In this document: piece after piece, positions 45,186 to 48,489 of the stretch
Layout of the letters: each line of letters opens with the position of its first letter
How positions within the stretch are numbered: position 1 is the first letter of the stretch
Assembly (NCBI GenBank): GCA_017938205.1
Contig: JAGBCA010000004.1
Location: forward strand, 434 to 64,433
Origin: Clostridia bacterium
GTDB lineage: Bacteria > Bacillota > Clostridia > Oscillospirales > CAG-272
Direction: 5' to 3'
Length of the DNA stretch: 64,000 nt
Program-made: the position numbers and the translations under genes
Notes under the pieces: generated by a model
The model's database searches: none
What the model saw: the letters and a program-made list of their open reading frames with translations, nothing else
What the model was told of the DNA's origin: nothing

Positions 45186-46280
45186 TTATACGTTGAAAAG
45201 GAATTCTACGATGTCGCCATCCTTCATAACGTATTCCTTACCCTCGCTACGAAGTAAGCCCTTTTCTTTTACCTTGTTGCGATCGCCCTCGCGAACAAGA
45301 TCATCAAAAGCAACCACCTCCGCACGGATAAACCCACGCTCGAAGTCTGTATGTATTTTACCTGCCGCCTGCGGAGCTTTCGTTCCCTTGGTAATCGTCC
45401 AAGCGCGAACCTCCTTGGGGCCGGCCGTTAAAAAGCTGATAAGACCAAGAAGAGAATATCCGGCACGAATAAGCTTGTCCAATCCGCTCTCTTGGATTCC
45501 GAGATCGGAAAGGAAGCTCTCCTTCTCTTCTCCTTCAAGCTCTGCAAGCTCGGCCTCGATCTGTGCGCTGACGGCAATGATGCCGCTTCCCTCGCTTTCT
45601 GCGTGCGCCTTCAGTGATTGATAGAAGGGATTACTTTCATATTCTCCCGCAACCTCACCCTCGCTTACGTTAGCAACGTAAATGATCGGCTTCAAGGTCA
45701 AAAGGCGGGATTCCTCGATCCAGGCAAGCGCATCGTCACTCAAATCAAGGCTACGTGCACATTTGCCTTCCTCAAGACAGGTCTTGATCTTTGCAAGAAC
45801 GTCAAGCTTTTCAAGAAGCTTCTTATCGGCTCTTGCGGCCTTCGTTGTTCTTTCGATCGCGCGCTCAACGATCTCAAGGTCAGAAAGTATCAACTCAAGA
45901 TTGATGGTTTCAACGTCACGGATGGGATCGATCGAACCTTCTACGTGAATAATATCATTGTTCTCAAAGCAACGGACAACGTGAACAACGGCATCCACCT
46001 CACGAATATTAGCAAGAAACTTATTACCAAGCCCTTCACCCTTGGATGCGCCGCGAACAAGACCGGCGATATCCACAAATTCGATAACGGCAGGTGTATA
46101 TTTCTCAGGATTGTACATCTTCGCAAGAACGTCAAGCCTTGCATCCGGAACGGCAACCACGCCTACGTTGGGATCAATCGTACAAAACGGATAGTTTGCG
46201 GATTCGGCACCCGCATTTGTCAAAGCATTAAAAAGCGTGCTCTTTCCCACGTTAGGAAGGCCGACAATACCAAGCTGCAT
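45186..46280 (-). CDS. ychF: Redox-regulated ATPase YchF
   Basis: The 364-aa ORF has [18 protein letters not shown], a TGS domain and the C-terminal [10 protein letters not shown]. Confidence 0.95.
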
Positions 46281-46325
46281 ATAAAATAACTCCTTTGGGT
46301 TTATCCTTGCTTATAAGCAAAAAAA

Positions 46326-46599
46326 TGGTGCGGGCGACAGGACTTGATTCTCGCGCGAACTACGCGCTGCGGTCATTCGCGGCTCTGACAGTCCACCGGA
46401 CTGTCATTCAGTTCCGCTCCTACTTCAAGTCCGTCGTACAACCTACACTTGCTTACATAAAATGGTGCGGGCGACAGGACTTGACTCTCGCGCGAACTAC
46501 GCGCTGCGGTCATTCGCGGCTCTGACAGTCCACTGGACTGTCATTCAGTTCCGCTCCTACTTCAAGTCCGTCGTATAACCCACACTTGCTTACATAAAA
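46326..46599 (-). repeat. Two tandem 137-bp units, each ending with a copy of the last 22 nt of tRNA-Leu (including CCA)
   Basis: The units are 46326-46462 and 46463-46599 and differ at 4 positions. TGGTGCGGGCGACAGGACTTGA recurs at 46326, 46463 and 46600, an exact 137-bp period. Each unit has strong internal self-complementarity. Confidence 0.9.
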
Positions 46600-46683
46600 T
46601 GGTGCGGGCGACAGGACTTGAACCTGCACATCGGAGATACCAGATCCTAAGTCTGGCGCGTCTGCCAGTTCCGCCACGCCCGC
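46600..46683 (-). tRNA. tRNA-Leu (anticodon UAG), CCA encoded
   Basis: The reverse complement is GCGGGCGTGGCGGAACTGGCAGACGCGCCAGACTTAGGATCTGGTATCTCCGATGTGCAGGTTCAAGTCCTGTCGCCCGCACCA. It folds as a class II cloverleaf with a long variable arm and anticodon loop CTTAGGA. Confidence 0.9.
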
Positions 46684-46818: not shown

Positions 46819-46909
46819 GGAGAGATGGCCGAGTTGGTCTAAGGCGCACGACTGGAAATCGTGTAAACCCTAACCGGTTTCATGGGTTCGAATCCCATTC
46901 TCTCCGCCA
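46819..46909 (+). tRNA. tRNA-Ser (anticodon GGA), CCA encoded
   Basis: GGAGAGATGGCCGAGTTGGTCTAAGGCGCACGACTGGAAATCGTG...GGGTTCGAATCCCATTCTCTCCGCCA. It is a class II tRNA with a long variable arm and anticodon loop CTGGAAA. Confidence 0.9.
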
Positions 46910-46970
46910 TAATATAAGCACCCCATTATGGGGTGCTTATATTATTTTATGGCTGATAGAATGAGGATGA
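46908..46970 (+). repeat. Left copy of a roughly 63-nt direct repeat bracketing the AT-rich cassette
   Basis: CATAATATAAGCACCCCATTATGGGGTGCTTATATTATTTTATGGCTGATAGAATGAGGATGA recurs at 48416-48478. I estimate about 80 percent identity by eye. Confidence 0.75.
46913..46941 (+). terminator. Intrinsic terminator after tRNA-Ser
   Basis: TATAAGCACCCC-ATTAT-GGGGTGCTTATA followed by TTATTTT. Confidence 0.75.
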
Positions 46971-47095
46971 GAAGCCATCGTCGCGCAGCGACTTGGGTTC
47001 GCATACCGCGCGAAGAGTGCGTCAAGCTTACTTGTAAGCGGCGAGCGACGGTATATTCGAGAGATTTTCTCGAGAACAACCATTCTCTCCACTAT

Positions 47096-47134
47096 AAAAA
47101 CGAACTTTTGTCTACCAGATAAAAGTTCGTTTTT
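47096..47134 (+). terminator. Strong intrinsic terminator
   Basis: AAAAACGAACTTTT-GTCTACCAGAT-AAAAGTTCGTTTTT followed by TCGTATTTTT. Confidence 0.8.
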
Positions 47135-47267
47135 TCGTATTTTTGAGCTTATATCTCACTAATAAAACATCGGTGTTCTTTTTATTACTCTTGGCTCAAA
47201 TAAAAAACGCCAAAAAACTTGCAACAGAAGAAATTCAAACACCCCTCAAAAAACTATTAAAAAACTA

Positions 47268-47296
47268 TTGACAACTTATAGTTGATATGTTATAAT
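47268..47296 (+). promoter_or_regulatory. Consensus sigma-A promoter of the two-gene cassette
   Basis: TTGACA (47268-47273), a 17-nt spacer, then TATAAT (47291-47296). It is preceded by a tandem AAAAACTATT AAAAAACTATT. Confidence 0.7.
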
Positions 47297-47323
47297 TGCA
47301 TTAAGAAAAGGAGGATGAATATT

Positions 47324-47662
47324 ATGGAGTACGAAAAAATAATTCTTGATTTATTGATGCGAGTTAAAGAGTTGGAGGAAAAAGTAGAACAACTTTCAAA
47401 GGAAAAGAAGAACAATTCAAAAAAGCAACCAGGAATAGCTGAAATCAGAGAATACATTATAGGGCTAAAACAGAAGGCAGCAGAAGATGGACTTCCCTAT
47501 ATTGTCTTAAAAGCCAATGACATACACAAAGCTATGGAATTAAAAAGCCGTATGCCTGCCGTTTGCAGTGCTATGAAACAATGTATGAATATGGGAGATA
47601 TTGTTTTGCATAAAACTGCAAGCGGATTTTCCTCAACATTCGAAATCCAATATACAATTTAA
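47324..47662 (+). CDS. Hypothetical 112-aa protein (N-terminal coiled coil plus a C-terminal domain of unknown function)
   Basis: An ATG lies 9 nt after AGGAGG. The frame stays open in AT-rich DNA. I recognise no family. Confidence 0.65.
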   Translation: MEYEKIILDLLMRVKELEEKVEQLSKEKKNNSKKQPGIAEIREYIIGLKQKAAEDGLPYIVLKANDIHKAMELKSRMPAVCSAMKQCMNMGDIVLHKTASGFSSTFEIQYTI

Positions 47663-47698
47663 TGGAAATACAGAGCTATACTGATTCGTTTTTGGTGA

Positions 47699-48364
47699 TT
47701 GAAAGTGCACGGACACAAATATTCTTCAAAAAAAGAGAAGTGGATTAGTAATGGTCACGGCGGCCATGTATTAAAACGGACATATTCGTATAACCACACT
47801 AACGATGTATTTACGATTTTCCTGCTGTGTTTTTTATTTGCTGCGCCCTTTTTGATTGCACGCAACCTAAAAGAGCGGAGGCGATTTTCAAATCACAAAT
47901 CTTTTATTAAACGGTTAGAGGAAAGCCAACAGCGCAGCTTGGAGAAACTACAGCAAACAAGGCAAAGCCTTTGGAATACTATAAAAAACAAACGCAAAGG
48001 CGAAAGTGATAATCATTGGATCAGAAGACTAAAAAGATATGGTTTTACAACAGATGGAGTGCATATAAAAACAGGAATAGAATATCAACTCAAAACAGAA
48101 ACGGAGAAATCTAAAATGAATGTTTATATCAAGGACAAATTAAAGAAGTTAGAAGGCGAAACTTTTTACACTGTAACAGGCAAACCATATACATATGAAT
48201 TCGTGGGCGAAAACATAATAAAGCCGAATAGAGCAAATTATAGGATTCATTTATCGAATTTTGAAAAAGCAATAAAAATAAATCCAACTGAATTACGTCA
48301 AATAAGAGAGGTTAGAGGCCCTTCTTATGTATTTGGAATAATAACGGATAAAAGATTTTGTTAA
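47699..48364 (+). CDS. Hypothetical 221-aa protein with one TM segment, a basic coiled region and a C-terminal domain of about 80 aa
   Basis: A 666-nt frame is open in AT-rich DNA, which is unlikely by chance. It has a TTG start with a weak RBS. An alternative internal start at ATG 48116, behind GGAG, would give only the 82-aa C-terminal domain. Confidence 0.5.
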   Translation: MKVHGHKYSSKKEKWISNGHGGHVLKRTYSYNHTNDVFTIFLLCFLFAAPFLIARNLKERRRFSNHKSFIKRLEESQQRSLEKLQQTRQSLWNTIKNKRKGESDNHWIRRLKRYGFTTDGVHIKTGIEYQLKTETEKSKMNVYIKDKLKKLEGETFYTVTGKPYTYEFVGENIIKPNRANYRIHLSNFEKAIKINPTELRQIREVRGPSYVFGIITDKRFC

Positions 48365-48415
48365 ATGTAGCGGAACGGTATTTGGATCATAATACATCTT
48401 TTTGCTACTCTTTCG

Positions 48416-48478
48416 CATAATATTAGCACTCCATTTTTTGGGTGCTTATATTACTTTACGGTGAAAAATAAGGATGGA
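48416..48478 (+). repeat. Right copy of the roughly 63-nt direct repeat
   Basis: CATAATATTAGCACTCCATTTTTTGGGTGCTTATATTACTTTACGGTGAAAAATAAGGATGGA matches 46908-46970. Confidence 0.75.
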
Positions 48479-48489
48479 ATAACAAAAAT

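What the first reader, a model, noticed from the sequence alone, without database searches (positions are those of the whole stretch)
46326..46599. Tandem 137-bp structured units that reuse the 3' end of tRNA-Leu
**Repeat structure**
- Directly 3' of tRNA-Leu(UAG) on the minus strand lie two head-to-tail 137-bp units that differ at only 4 positions.
- In RNA sense each unit ends with the same 22 nt as the tRNA: the 3' half of the T arm, the acceptor 3' strand and CCA.
- That 22-mer therefore occurs three times at an exact 137-bp period (46326, 46463, 46600 on the plus strand).
- A partial fourth junction is visible left of unit 1 (CTTGCTTATAAGC versus CTTGCTTACATAA).

**Internal structure**
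- The other 115 nt of each unit do not form a cloverleaf but are highly self-complementary.
- A 12-bp closing helix (CGACGGACTTGA with TCAAGTCCTGTCG, one bulged A) recruits the tRNA-derived segment.
- There is a 9-bp hairpin TGACAGTCC-NNN-GGACTGTCA.
- There is a GCGCG-AACTA-CGCGC hairpin.
- One of the four differences falls in the 3-nt loop of the 9-bp hairpin, so that stem is preserved.

**Possible explanations**
- Serial attachment-site scars of a miniature integrative element that targets the tRNA-Leu 3' end.
- A family of tRNA-primed or tRNA-mimicking small RNAs, co-transcribed with the tRNA and released by tRNA-processing enzymes.
- The units also lie in the leader of ychF.
Basis: seen in the sequence. 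Interest (0 to 1): 0.65.

Follow-up and report, generated by a model that had tools for sequence, protein, structure and literature searches.

The report
Miniature hairpin insertion element behind tRNA genes
The two 137-bp repeats behind tRNA-Leu are tandem copies of a small, gene-less, hairpin-forming insertion element that belongs to a large undescribed family lodged behind many different tRNA genes in gut and rumen Clostridia, each copy bracketed by a repeat of the 3' end of its own tRNA.

Summary
tRNA-Leu(UAG) is followed by two 137-bp head-to-tail units that differ at 4 positions. Each ends in the tRNA's last 22 nt.

The units are not peculiar to this locus. Their 28-nt core hairpin occurs in at least 119 stretches from about 102 species-representative genomes, mostly Oscillospiraceae, Acutalibacteraceae and other Clostridia, and in 8 viral contigs. 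In 36 of the 135 copies found, the core lies downstream of a same-strand tRNA, 32 of them within 140 nt. These tRNAs carry about 20 different anticodons.

These copies share one architecture:
- tRNA, then a spacer or terminator
- a left arm that is the reverse complement of that tRNA's T-loop and T-stem
- an ~85-nt conserved module
- a copy of the tRNA from about position 55 or 56 to CCA

Close relatives (YchF 90-96% identical) carry 0, 1 or 2 units at the same site, so this is a recent insertion/deletion polymorphism.

Helix P2 covaries strongly. There is no Rfam, phage, plasmid or literature match. No gene is consistently nearby.

Best reading: a non-autonomous mobile DNA element that integrates at tRNA 3' ends and was duplicated here by unequal recombination. 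A functional structured RNA is the main rival. The mobilising enzyme is unknown.

The parts
46600..46683 (-). tRNA-Leu(UAG), intact. Its last 22 nt (46600-46621) are the first copy of the direct repeat.
   Evidence: ARAGORN; Rfam tRNA, 57.1 bits.
46463..46599 (-). Unit A, the copy nearer the tRNA (137 nt). In RNA sense it consists of the trailer copy, the left arm, the module and the 22-mer.
   Evidence: TRF; sequence; fold -57.6 kcal/mol, z -4.7.
46326..46462 (-). Unit B, the copy nearer ychF (137 nt). It differs from unit A at 4 positions.
46562..46585 (-). Left arm of unit A, GTGTGGG-TTATA-CGACGGACTTGA. It is an imperfect reverse complement of the 22-mer (T-loop, T-stem 3' strand and acceptor 3' strand) and forms helix P1.
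   Evidence: Fold; left arms in the family match the cognate tRNA, with mean runs of 8.1 against 5.1 nt for non-cognate tRNAs.
46425..46448 (-). Left arm of unit B, GTGTAGG-TTGTA-CGACGGACTTGA.
   Evidence: Fold.
46514..46556 (-). P2-P3 domain of unit A. It comprises GAGCGG, the internal loop AACTGAA/GAG, the 9-bp hairpin TGACAGTCC-AGT-GGACTGTCA and CCGCGA. This is the family's conserved core.
   Evidence: Covariance model R1 hit at 46510-46560, 63.4 bits; P2 covariation.
46377..46419 (-). P2-P3 domain of unit B, with loop GGT.
   Evidence: Covariance model R1 hit at 46373-46423, 65.6 bits.
46487..46508 (-). P4 hairpin of unit A, CGCAGCGCG-TAGTT-CGCGCGAG. In the family P4 is a hairpin of variable sequence flanked by CGAG...CGAG.
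   Evidence: Folds; family alignment A1.
46350..46371 (-). P4 hairpin of unit B.
46463..46484 (-). Second copy of the tRNA 3' 22-mer (right arm of unit A).
46326..46347 (-). Third copy of the tRNA 3' 22-mer (right arm of unit B).
46306..46325 (-). Trailer after the last unit, TTTTTTTGCTTATAAGCAAG. It is related to the first 15 nt of each unit, so the direct repeat runs from the T-loop to about 15-20 nt past CCA.
   Evidence: Sequence.
45186..46280 (-). ychF. In relatives without the element it starts 30-35 nt after tRNA-Leu, so the units lie inside a probable tRNA-Leu-ychF transcript.
   Evidence: Pfam families listed; empty sites L144-L146.

Best explanation
**What it is**
The two units are tandem copies of a non-autonomous, miniature DNA insertion element. 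Its family integrates at the 3' end of tRNA genes in gut and rumen Clostridia.

**Anatomy of a copy**
- A spacer, which in many loci includes a terminator.
- A left arm that is the reverse complement of the local tRNA from about position 54 into the T-stem and sometimes the acceptor strand.
- A conserved module of about 85 nt. It comprises helix P2, an asymmetric internal loop, the near-invariant 9-bp hairpin P3 and hairpin P4.
- A copy of the tRNA from position 55 or 56 to CCA.

**Shown**
- The element is an insertion relative to close relatives.
- It is flanked by direct repeats of the tRNA 3' end.
- The foreign DNA ends exactly at the second CCA.
- The same module lies behind many different tRNAs.
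- The module has a conserved, strand-specific secondary structure.

**Inferred**
- Integration occurs by a crossover inside the roughly 21-22-bp tRNA identity block that starts in the T-loop. Either a trans-acting recombinase or homology-driven recombination could do this.
- The intact tRNA is therefore rebuilt, and the displaced tRNA 3' end is left behind the module.
- The conserved P2-P3 hairpin is the handle that a trans-acting protein recognises.
- The left arm is kept complementary to the right arm so that the element can fold into a long hairpin.
- In this window one insertion was later doubled by unequal recombination between its roughly 40-nt flanking repeats. The same process gives the 1-copy alleles and could restore the empty site.

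**Local consequence**
A stable hairpin array now lies in the tRNA-Leu-ychF transcript.
For: **Presence/absence polymorphism**
- Orthologous tRNA-Leu-ychF loci are empty in L144, L145 and L146.
- L143 has one unit, with a different spacer.
- The window, L001 and L003 have two units. L005 and L006 have one. L007 carries a hybrid unit.

**Family size**
- In gut metagenome contigs the core's depth is 30-80 times that of the flanking single-copy DNA.

**tRNA linkage**
- 36 of 135 copies have a same-strand tRNA ending less than 700 nt upstream, 32 of them within 140 nt. Together these tRNAs carry about 20 anticodons.
- The unit ends in that tRNA's own 3' end.

**Left arm matches the local tRNA**
- The longest exact complementary run averages 8.1 nt for the cognate tRNA and 5.1 nt for non-cognate tRNAs.

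**Same module, different arms**
- An identical module has three different arm sets in three species: L029 (Thr), L095 (Pro) and L129.

**Boundaries of the inserted DNA**
- Within one genome, units behind tRNA-Leu(UAG) and tRNA-Leu(CAG) share terminator, spacer, left arm and module.
- Their similarity stops exactly at the unit's CCA.

**Further signs of mobility and decay**
- A core is nested inside the P3 hairpin of another unit in L089.
- The acceptor/CCA tail of the right arm decays: 24 mismatches against 12 in the paired part, and several copies have lost CCA. This is as expected of a displaced remnant.

**No coding partner and no transcriptional bias**
- No ORF family is enriched within 2.5 kb.
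- Copies not linked to a tRNA show no orientation bias relative to neighbouring genes.

**Structure is constrained**
- In P2, 7 of 8 pairs change on both sides. The covariation score is 0.222 against 0.068 for shuffles, exceeded in 0 of 500.
- P3 has compensatory variants in L114 and L056.
Against: - No recombinase, transposase or reverse transcriptase has been linked to the element. No excised or circular form has been seen.
- A classical tRNA-specific integrase would not be expected to serve about 20 different tRNAs.
- How the left arm comes to match each new tRNA is unexplained. Identical modules with perfectly adapted arms argue against slow point mutation. Partly adapted arms in L062 and L119 argue against pure templating.
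- Strong, sense-strand-specific structure would equally fit a functional RNA. This includes tandem G.A pairs and a sense strand that folds better than the antisense strand in 29-31 of 34 members.
- The core is present in contigs of metatranscriptome libraries.
- The tRNA-Asp-linked unit is conserved in four species inside a tRNA operon.
- All family members were found with a pattern that fixed the P3 sequence. The apparent invariance of P3 is therefore partly due to how they were found.
Confidence: 0.55

Rival explanations
1. The conserved module is a functional structured non-coding RNA. It would be a protein-binding domain with a kink-turn-like internal loop, made from the tRNA promoter or by read-through. 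Helix P1, borrowed from the tRNA 3' end, would close it and perhaps couple it to tRNA processing enzymes. Mobility would be secondary.
For: - P2 covaries, and P3 and P4 show compensatory changes.
- Non-canonical positions in P2 are almost all G.A or A.G.
- The sense strand folds better than the antisense strand in 29 of 34 members.
- tRNA-linked copies are always co-oriented with the tRNA. In the window and in the tRNA-Asp operons no terminator intervenes.
- Contigs from metatranscriptome libraries cover the core.
- The module also lies in intergenic regions of viral contigs.
Against: - In most loci a terminator precedes the unit.
- The unit is dispensable in close relatives.
- The CCA tail decays.
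- Copies not linked to a tRNA lie in all orientations relative to neighbouring genes, including antisense to both.
- There is no Rfam match even at E up to 10.
- The RNA-library evidence is contigs only. It carries no strand information, may include DNA, and is pooled over the whole family.
Confidence: 0.25
2. The units are deletion remnants (attL/attR scars) of ordinary integrase-encoding prophages or integrative elements that once sat in tRNA-Leu. Nothing mobile is left.
For: - The direct repeat starts in the T-loop and runs to CCA. From general knowledge of tRNA-targeting integrases, this is a typical attB identity block.
- Prophage-like viral contigs end next to near-identical tRNA-Leu genes.
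- In L115 a unit follows an island-type tRNA 3' fragment.
Against: - The same 85-nt module recurs behind about 20 tRNA types and in loci with no tRNA.
- No integrase lies near any copy.
- The 7 viral contigs that carry the 22-mer lack the module.
- There is no match in 50,697 phage records or 72,556 plasmid records.
- Independent deletions would not leave the same structured 85 nt each time.
Confidence: 0.08
3. The units are decayed tandem duplicates of the tRNA-Leu gene itself (tRNA pseudogenes).
For: The units share the last 22 nt with the tRNA. They also share a 9-nt match, GCGGAACTG, with its D-arm region (sequence).
Against: - ARAGORN and Rfam find no tRNA in the units.
- The 115 non-tRNA nucleotides are homologous to modules behind unrelated tRNAs.
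- The family consensus at the 9-mer is GCGGTAGTG, so the D-arm match is local chance.
Confidence: 0.02

Closest known systems
tRNA-targeting integrative elements and their non-autonomous derivatives (cis-mobilizable elements, CIMEs, flanked by att sites but lacking an integrase; reviewed in PMC5704250)
   Same: - The tRNA stays intact and is followed by foreign DNA.
- That DNA ends in a direct repeat of the tRNA 3' end that begins in the T-loop.
- The element is present or absent among relatives, and tandem arrays form.
- In some loci the element brings its own terminator for the tRNA.
   Different: - It is only 115-140 bp and has no integrase in cis or nearby.
- One module serves about 20 different tRNAs.
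- It carries an inverted copy of the target that makes the element a long hairpin.
- Its conserved core is GC-rich and highly structured, unlike AT-rich att arms.
Bacterial miniature repeats (MITEs, REP/BIME elements, palindrome-associated transposable elements)
   Same: - It is short, without a gene, multicopy and intergenic.
- It forms hairpins and varies between strains.
- It also occurs away from tRNAs in either orientation, and copies can be nested.
   Different: - The terminal inverted repeat is not a fixed part of the element. It is made of the local tRNA sequence.
- The flanking direct repeat is 21 to about 70 bp, not 2-10 bp.
- One end of that repeat is fixed in the T-loop.
- No partner transposase is known.
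Folded single-strand recombination sites (integron attC sites, CTX phage attP)
   Same: - The hairpin is strand-specific and has conserved unpaired bases.
- Its stem recreates the duplex sequence of the target site.
- Units occur in tandem arrays.
   Different: - No integron integrase context and no cassette ORFs.
- Single-strand recombination has not been shown.
- There is no orientation bias relative to the local coding strand.
Structured non-coding RNAs that cluster near tRNA genes and in phages (ROOL, GOLLD; tRNA-like YrlA RNAs)
   Same: - It lies next to tRNAs and occurs in viral contigs.
- Its secondary structure is conserved with covariation.
- It lives in rumen and gut Firmicutes.
   Different: - No covariance-model match to any Rfam family.
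- It is far smaller.
- It is bracketed by target repeats and polymorphic between close relatives.

Membership tests
Site-specific integrative element at a tRNA gene (integrase-mediated) | Direct repeat of the tRNA 3' part flanking the inserted DNA, with the upstream tRNA intact. | tested here: met
   The 22-mer occurs three times. The same arrangement is seen in 29 of 32 tRNA-linked family members.
Site-specific integrative element at a tRNA gene (integrase-mediated) | A tyrosine or serine recombinase gene inside or next to the element. | tested here: not met
   The units hold no ORF of that kind. No ORF family is enriched within 2.5 kb of 112 copies. The neighbours in the window are ychF, comEC-like, EF-G and two ORFs without a Pfam match.
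Site-specific integrative element at a tRNA gene (integrase-mediated) | Specificity for one tRNA species. | tested here: not met
   About 20 anticodons in 12-13 amino-acid classes.
Cis-mobilizable element (att-flanked, mobilised in trans) | Excision or integration by an integrase supplied in trans. | not testable with these tools
   This needs detection of excised circles or an experiment. Only the presence/absence polymorphism is shown.
MITE / REP-type miniature repeat | Short, non-coding, multicopy within and between genomes. | tested here: met
   At least 119 stretches in about 102 genomes. At least 4 copies lie in one genome (L053 with two, L062, L119).
MITE / REP-type miniature repeat | Element-specific terminal inverted repeats and a short target-site duplication. 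| tested here: not met
   The arms differ with the local tRNA. The duplication is 21 to about 70 bp and starts in the T-loop.
MITE / REP-type miniature repeat | A cognate transposase (autonomous partner or REP-associated tyrosine transposase, RAYT) in the same genomes. | not tested
   This would need whole-genome phylogenetic profiling of carrier and non-carrier genomes.
Known structured RNA family (Rfam 15) | Covariance-model score at or above the family's gathering threshold. | tested here: not met
   Only the two tRNAs pass in the window. Nothing overlaps the units even at E up to 10. Nothing is found on 8 viral loci or on a copy not linked to a tRNA.
tRNA or tRNA-like gene | Cloverleaf detected by tRNA finders. 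| tested here: not met
   ARAGORN and Rfam RF00005 call only 46600-46683 and 46819-46909.
Kink-turn containing RNA | A three-nucleotide bulge followed by tandem sheared G.A pairs between two helices, bound by an L7Ae-type protein. | not tested
   The resemblance of the loop (N)AGUGAA / GAG between P2 and P3 comes from memory only. An extra unpaired A does not fit the textbook motif.

The most novel reading that the evidence does not exclude
This would be a previously unrecognised class of mobile element that homes to the T-loop of any tRNA gene. On insertion it would build its own terminal inverted repeat from the target, as an inverted copy plus a direct copy of the tRNA 3' end. It would then move as a folded single strand (DNA, or an RNA intermediate), with the near-invariant P2-P3 hairpin recognised by an as yet unidentified enzyme. 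In this reading the element could also act on tRNA biology, because its left arm is antisense to the 3' half of the very tRNA it follows.
Probability: 0.25. Interest if true: 0.85.

Novelty: new variant of a known kind. Interest (0 to 1): 0.68.

Why it matters
**Why the family is of interest**
- tRNA genes are the classic landing sites of prophages and genomic islands. Here a tiny, gene-less element uses the same site in about 100 or more uncultured gut and rumen species.
- It adapts to many different tRNAs and carries a very strongly conserved structured core of unknown partner.

**What could follow**
- Finding the enzyme or protein that reads the P2-P3 hairpin could reveal a new recombination or transposition chemistry, or a new RNA-protein system.

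**Practical points**
- The element breaks metagenome assemblies at tRNA loci. Contigs end in the core, whose depth is 30-80 times that of the flanks.
- It adds stable hairpins to tRNA transcripts and, in this window, to the ychF leader.
- It can be mistaken for tRNA fragments or att sites.

Tried and rejected
**Searches that found nothing**
- Rfam at lenient thresholds on the window, on 8 viral loci and on a copy not linked to a tRNA.
- blastn of the unit against 50,697 phage and 72,556 plasmid records.
- Full-text searches for the concept and for the core sequence itself.
- An exact metagenome scan for the window-specific module/22-mer junction. It gave 0 hits, although two JGI contigs (L005, L006) carry that sequence, so that collection evidently does not hold such short contigs.

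**Tests that came out negative**
- All-against-all clustering of ORFs within 2.5 kb of 112 copies showed no shared family.
- Orientation of copies relative to neighbouring ORFs and to the local coding strand showed no bias. There is thus no support for co-transcription of the copies not linked to a tRNA, or for lagging-strand-specific insertion.

**Ideas considered and set aside**
- *Primer-binding-site (tRNA-primed reverse transcription) reading.* In most members the left arm pairs with the T-loop and T-stem, not with the 3' terminal CCA.
- *IS200/IS605- or IS91-type insertion next to a fixed tetranucleotide.* The junction sequence varies with the T-loop.
- *Simple insertion into the T-loop of a duplicated T-arm.* The left arm is the reverse complement of T-loop positions that are not palindromic.
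- *DNA mini-hairpin motif (GCGNAGC, PMC13037366).* It is present in the copies not linked to a tRNA (GCGAAGC) but not in the window's units. The P4 loop is a CGCA tetraloop, not a GNA triloop, so I do not use this as evidence for a DNA-level fold here.

Full report
**1. The observation**

The minus strand reads tRNA-Leu(UAG) (46683..46600), then unit A (46599..46463), then unit B (46462..46326), then 45 nt, then the ychF start codon at 46280.
- TRF reports a period of 137, 2.2 copies and 97% identity.
- The tRNA's last 22 nt, TCAAGTCCTGTCGCCCGCACCA, occur three times at an exact 137-nt spacing. None is expected by chance.
- The units differ at positions 19, 24, 66 and 115.
The energies are -57.6 and -50.9 kcal/mol, with z-scores of -4.7 and -2.7.
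- The repeat continues past CCA into the trailer (TTTT..TAAGCAAG). The duplicated target segment is therefore about 40 nt, from the T-loop to about 15-20 nt after the tRNA.
- Independent assemblies (L001, L003) and contigs from three further runs span the unit-to-unit junction. The array is therefore real.

**2. The units belong to a large family**

The 9-bp hairpin with its flanks (TGAATGACAGTCCNNNGGACTGTCAGAG) was found widely.
- It occurs in 8 IMG/VR viral contigs.
- These stretches come from about 102 different genomes. Nearly all are Oscillospiraceae, Acutalibacteraceae, Faecousia, Ruminococcus and unclassified Clostridia from ruminant and human guts.
- In gut metagenome contigs the core reaches 30-80 times the depth of the flanking single-copy DNA, and contigs break there.

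No description of the family was found.
- It has no Rfam match, even at E up to 10.
- It has no match in the phage or plasmid record collections.
- It has no hit in the paper library, including a search for the sequence itself.

**3. Two contexts**

*tRNA-linked copies, like the window.* In 36 of 135 copies a same-strand tRNA ends less than 700 nt upstream, in 32 of them within 140 nt.
- The tRNAs are Leu (four anticodons), Thr, Met, Ser, Asp, Pro, Trp, Tyr, Arg, Asn, Gln and Gly, about 20 anticodons in all.
- The order of parts is always the same:
  1. tRNA ending in CCA
  2. spacer, usually with a terminator hairpin
  3. a left arm of 8-20 nt, the reverse complement of that tRNA from about position 54 into the T-stem
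  4. the module of about 85 nt
  5. a copy of that tRNA's 3' end up to CCA
  6. usually another terminator
- The left arm matches its own tRNA better than other tRNAs. The longest complementary run averages 8.1 nt against 5.1 nt.
- Identity between the right arm and the tRNA usually starts at C56.

*Copies not linked to a tRNA.* These share P2, P3 and the P4 motif but have other conserved flanks. They lie in intergenic regions, including phage-like contigs.
- They show no preferred orientation relative to neighbouring ORFs or to the local coding strand.
- No ORF family is enriched near either kind of copy.

**4. Structure**

On 47 distinct P2-P3 segments the P2 helix covaries strongly.
- 7 of 8 pairs change on both sides.
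- 80 cells carry compensatory changes, against 28 in shuffles.
- The covariation score is 0.222 against 0.068, exceeded in 0 of 500 shuffles.
- Versions with the partner slid by 1-3 columns pair in only 28-39% of cells, against 91% for the structure itself.

Further points:
- Where P2 positions 5-7 are not Watson-Crick, they are almost always G.A or A.G.
- P3 was fixed by the search pattern. A covariance-model search of about 0.7 Mb of held sequence still found variants with compensatory changes. L114 has CA/TG changed to AC/GT, and L056 has G-C changed to A-T.
- The sense strand (the tRNA's strand) is predicted to fold better than the antisense strand in 29 of 34 members with RNA parameters and in 31 of 34 with DNA parameters. 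These members are related to each other, so the counts are not independent.

The fold is therefore under selection on the tRNA-sense strand. The data do not say whether the relevant molecule is RNA or single-stranded DNA.

**5. Evidence for insertion and mobility**

- *Copy number among relatives.* YchF orthologues at 90-96% identity lead to the same tRNA-Leu-ychF locus.
  - In L144, L145 and L146, tRNA-Leu is followed after 30-35 nt by ychF, with no unit.
  - L143 has one unit, with a different spacer and a shorter left arm.
  - Contigs with the identical YchF protein carry two units (L001, L003), one unit (L005, L006) or a hybrid unit (L007).
- *Same module, different arms.* Three species carry a module identical over about 85 nt but with three different, well-matched arm sets: Thr in L029, Pro in L095, and a third tRNA-like end in L129.
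- *Boundaries.* In one genome (JAZRNI01) units follow tRNA-Asp, tRNA-Leu(UAG), tRNA-Leu(CAG) and a fourth tRNA-like 3' end.
  - The two Leu loci share terminator, spacer, left arm and module.
  - Their similarity ends exactly at the unit's CCA.
  - The inserted DNA is therefore delimited by the two copies of the tRNA 3' end, as in Campbell-type integration.
- *Nesting.* In L089 a core is inserted inside the P3 hairpin of another unit.
- *Decay of the tail.* The acceptor/CCA tail of the right arm accumulates mismatches (24, against 12 in the paired part). Several copies have lost CCA. This fits a displaced remnant better than a functional tRNA-end mimic.
- *Units without a tRNA.* Some tRNA-type units have no tRNA nearby (L028, L129). 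One follows an island-type tRNA 3' fragment (L115).

**6. Most likely mechanism**

I take the units to be a non-autonomous DNA element that integrates by a crossover within the 21-22-bp tRNA identity block that begins in the T-loop. This rebuilds the tRNA and leaves the displaced 3' end behind the module.
- The local array then follows from unequal recombination between the roughly 40-nt flanking repeats. The same process yields one-copy alleles and could restore an empty site.
- These steps are inferred, not shown. No enzyme, excised circle or new insertion has been observed.
- The unusual point is that the left arm follows the local tRNA. Identical modules with perfect arms suggest a templated process. 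Candidates, from general knowledge of fold-back synthesis and quasi-palindrome correction, are template switching within the hairpin or an insertion chemistry that copies the target in both orientations.
- The partly adapted arms of L062 and L119, which keep G.T wobbles, show that ordinary mutation also plays a part.

**7. Rivals**

- *A functional structured RNA.*
  - In its favour: the strand-specific structure, the co-orientation with tRNAs, conservation of the tRNA-Asp-linked unit inside tRNA operons of four species, and coverage of the core by contigs from metatranscriptome libraries.
  - Against it: terminators in front of most units, dispensability in close relatives, decay of the CCA tail, and the random orientation of the copies not linked to a tRNA.
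  - The RNA-library evidence consists of unstranded contigs pooled over the whole family.
- *Remnants of ordinary prophages.* This is unlikely, because the same module recurs at about 20 tRNA types without any integrase.
- *Decayed tRNA duplicates.* This is excluded.

**8. Local consequences**

In the relatives without the element there is no terminator between tRNA-Leu and ychF. The units therefore lie in a probable tRNA-Leu-ychF transcript. The last unit's long hairpin is followed by CA and seven T's, so it might attenuate ychF. The simple terminator scan did not call it, and this was not tested further.

**9. Novelty**

The element combines traits of tRNA-targeting integrative elements, namely a T-loop-to-CCA direct repeat and an intact tRNA, with traits of miniature repeats, namely no gene, many copies and a hairpin. 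It meets neither family's full definition. There is no integrase and no single tRNA target. There is no fixed terminal repeat and no short target duplication. I rate it a new variant of a known kind, with a real chance that the underlying mechanism is new.

Noticed in passing
window 46907-48479: Next to tRNA-Ser(GGA) (46819-46909, plus strand), about 1.5 kb (roughly 46975-48414) is an insertion relative to the close relative L143. It is flanked by imperfect direct repeats of about 65 nt (46907-46974 and 48415-48479). These repeats begin at the tRNA's CCA and include its terminator. The insert carries a perfect sigma-70-like promoter (47268-47296) and two ORFs without a Pfam match (47282-47662, 47699-48364).
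   Followed up: partly
window 46946-47134: At the left end of that insert lies a second, different hairpin-rich segment (fold -50 kcal/mol, z -2.5). It ends in CCATTCTCTCCACTA, a diverged copy of the tRNA-Ser 3' end (CCATTCTCTCCGCCA), and is followed by its own terminator (47096-47134). The layout is analogous to the tRNA-Leu units but with another core.
   Followed up: partly
L030 (5857-6010 in tRNA orientation), L092, L136: Some tRNA loci carry units with the same arms and layout but a different or rearranged core. In L030, for example, the first unit keeps only ACAGTCCGGTGGACTGT. The tRNA-tail architecture is therefore wider than the one core family.
   Followed up: no
L031, L084, L109, L116, L070, L079: tRNA-Met-linked units form a subfamily. 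They keep a whole T-arm and an anticodon-arm-like segment (GGGCTCATGCCCGG). Upstream of these they carry the reverse complement of the tRNA-Met anticodon arm. The module sits where the variable loop would be.
   Followed up: no
L016-L022, L026, L033, L040 and other copies not linked to a tRNA: These copies have a conserved 5' part, GGCTCCCC-loop-GGGGTA(A)GCGAAGCG. Its GCGNAGC stretch varies only in N (GCGAAGC, GCGTAGC, GCCGAAGGC). This matches the sequence of the very stable DNA mini-hairpin motif described in PMC13037366.
   Followed up: partly
L020 3390-3420 and 3815-3860; L019: Phage-like contigs that hold the module also have short tandem repeats (GAAGATT repeated, GAAGAGT) and other GC-rich hairpin chains in the same intergenic regions.
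   Followed up: no
L024, L036, L045/L088/L113, L139: A few carrier bins are labelled Sphaerochaetaceae, Synergistaceae, Bacteroidaceae or Eggerthellaceae. This could reflect binning contamination or transfer outside Clostridia.
   Followed up: no
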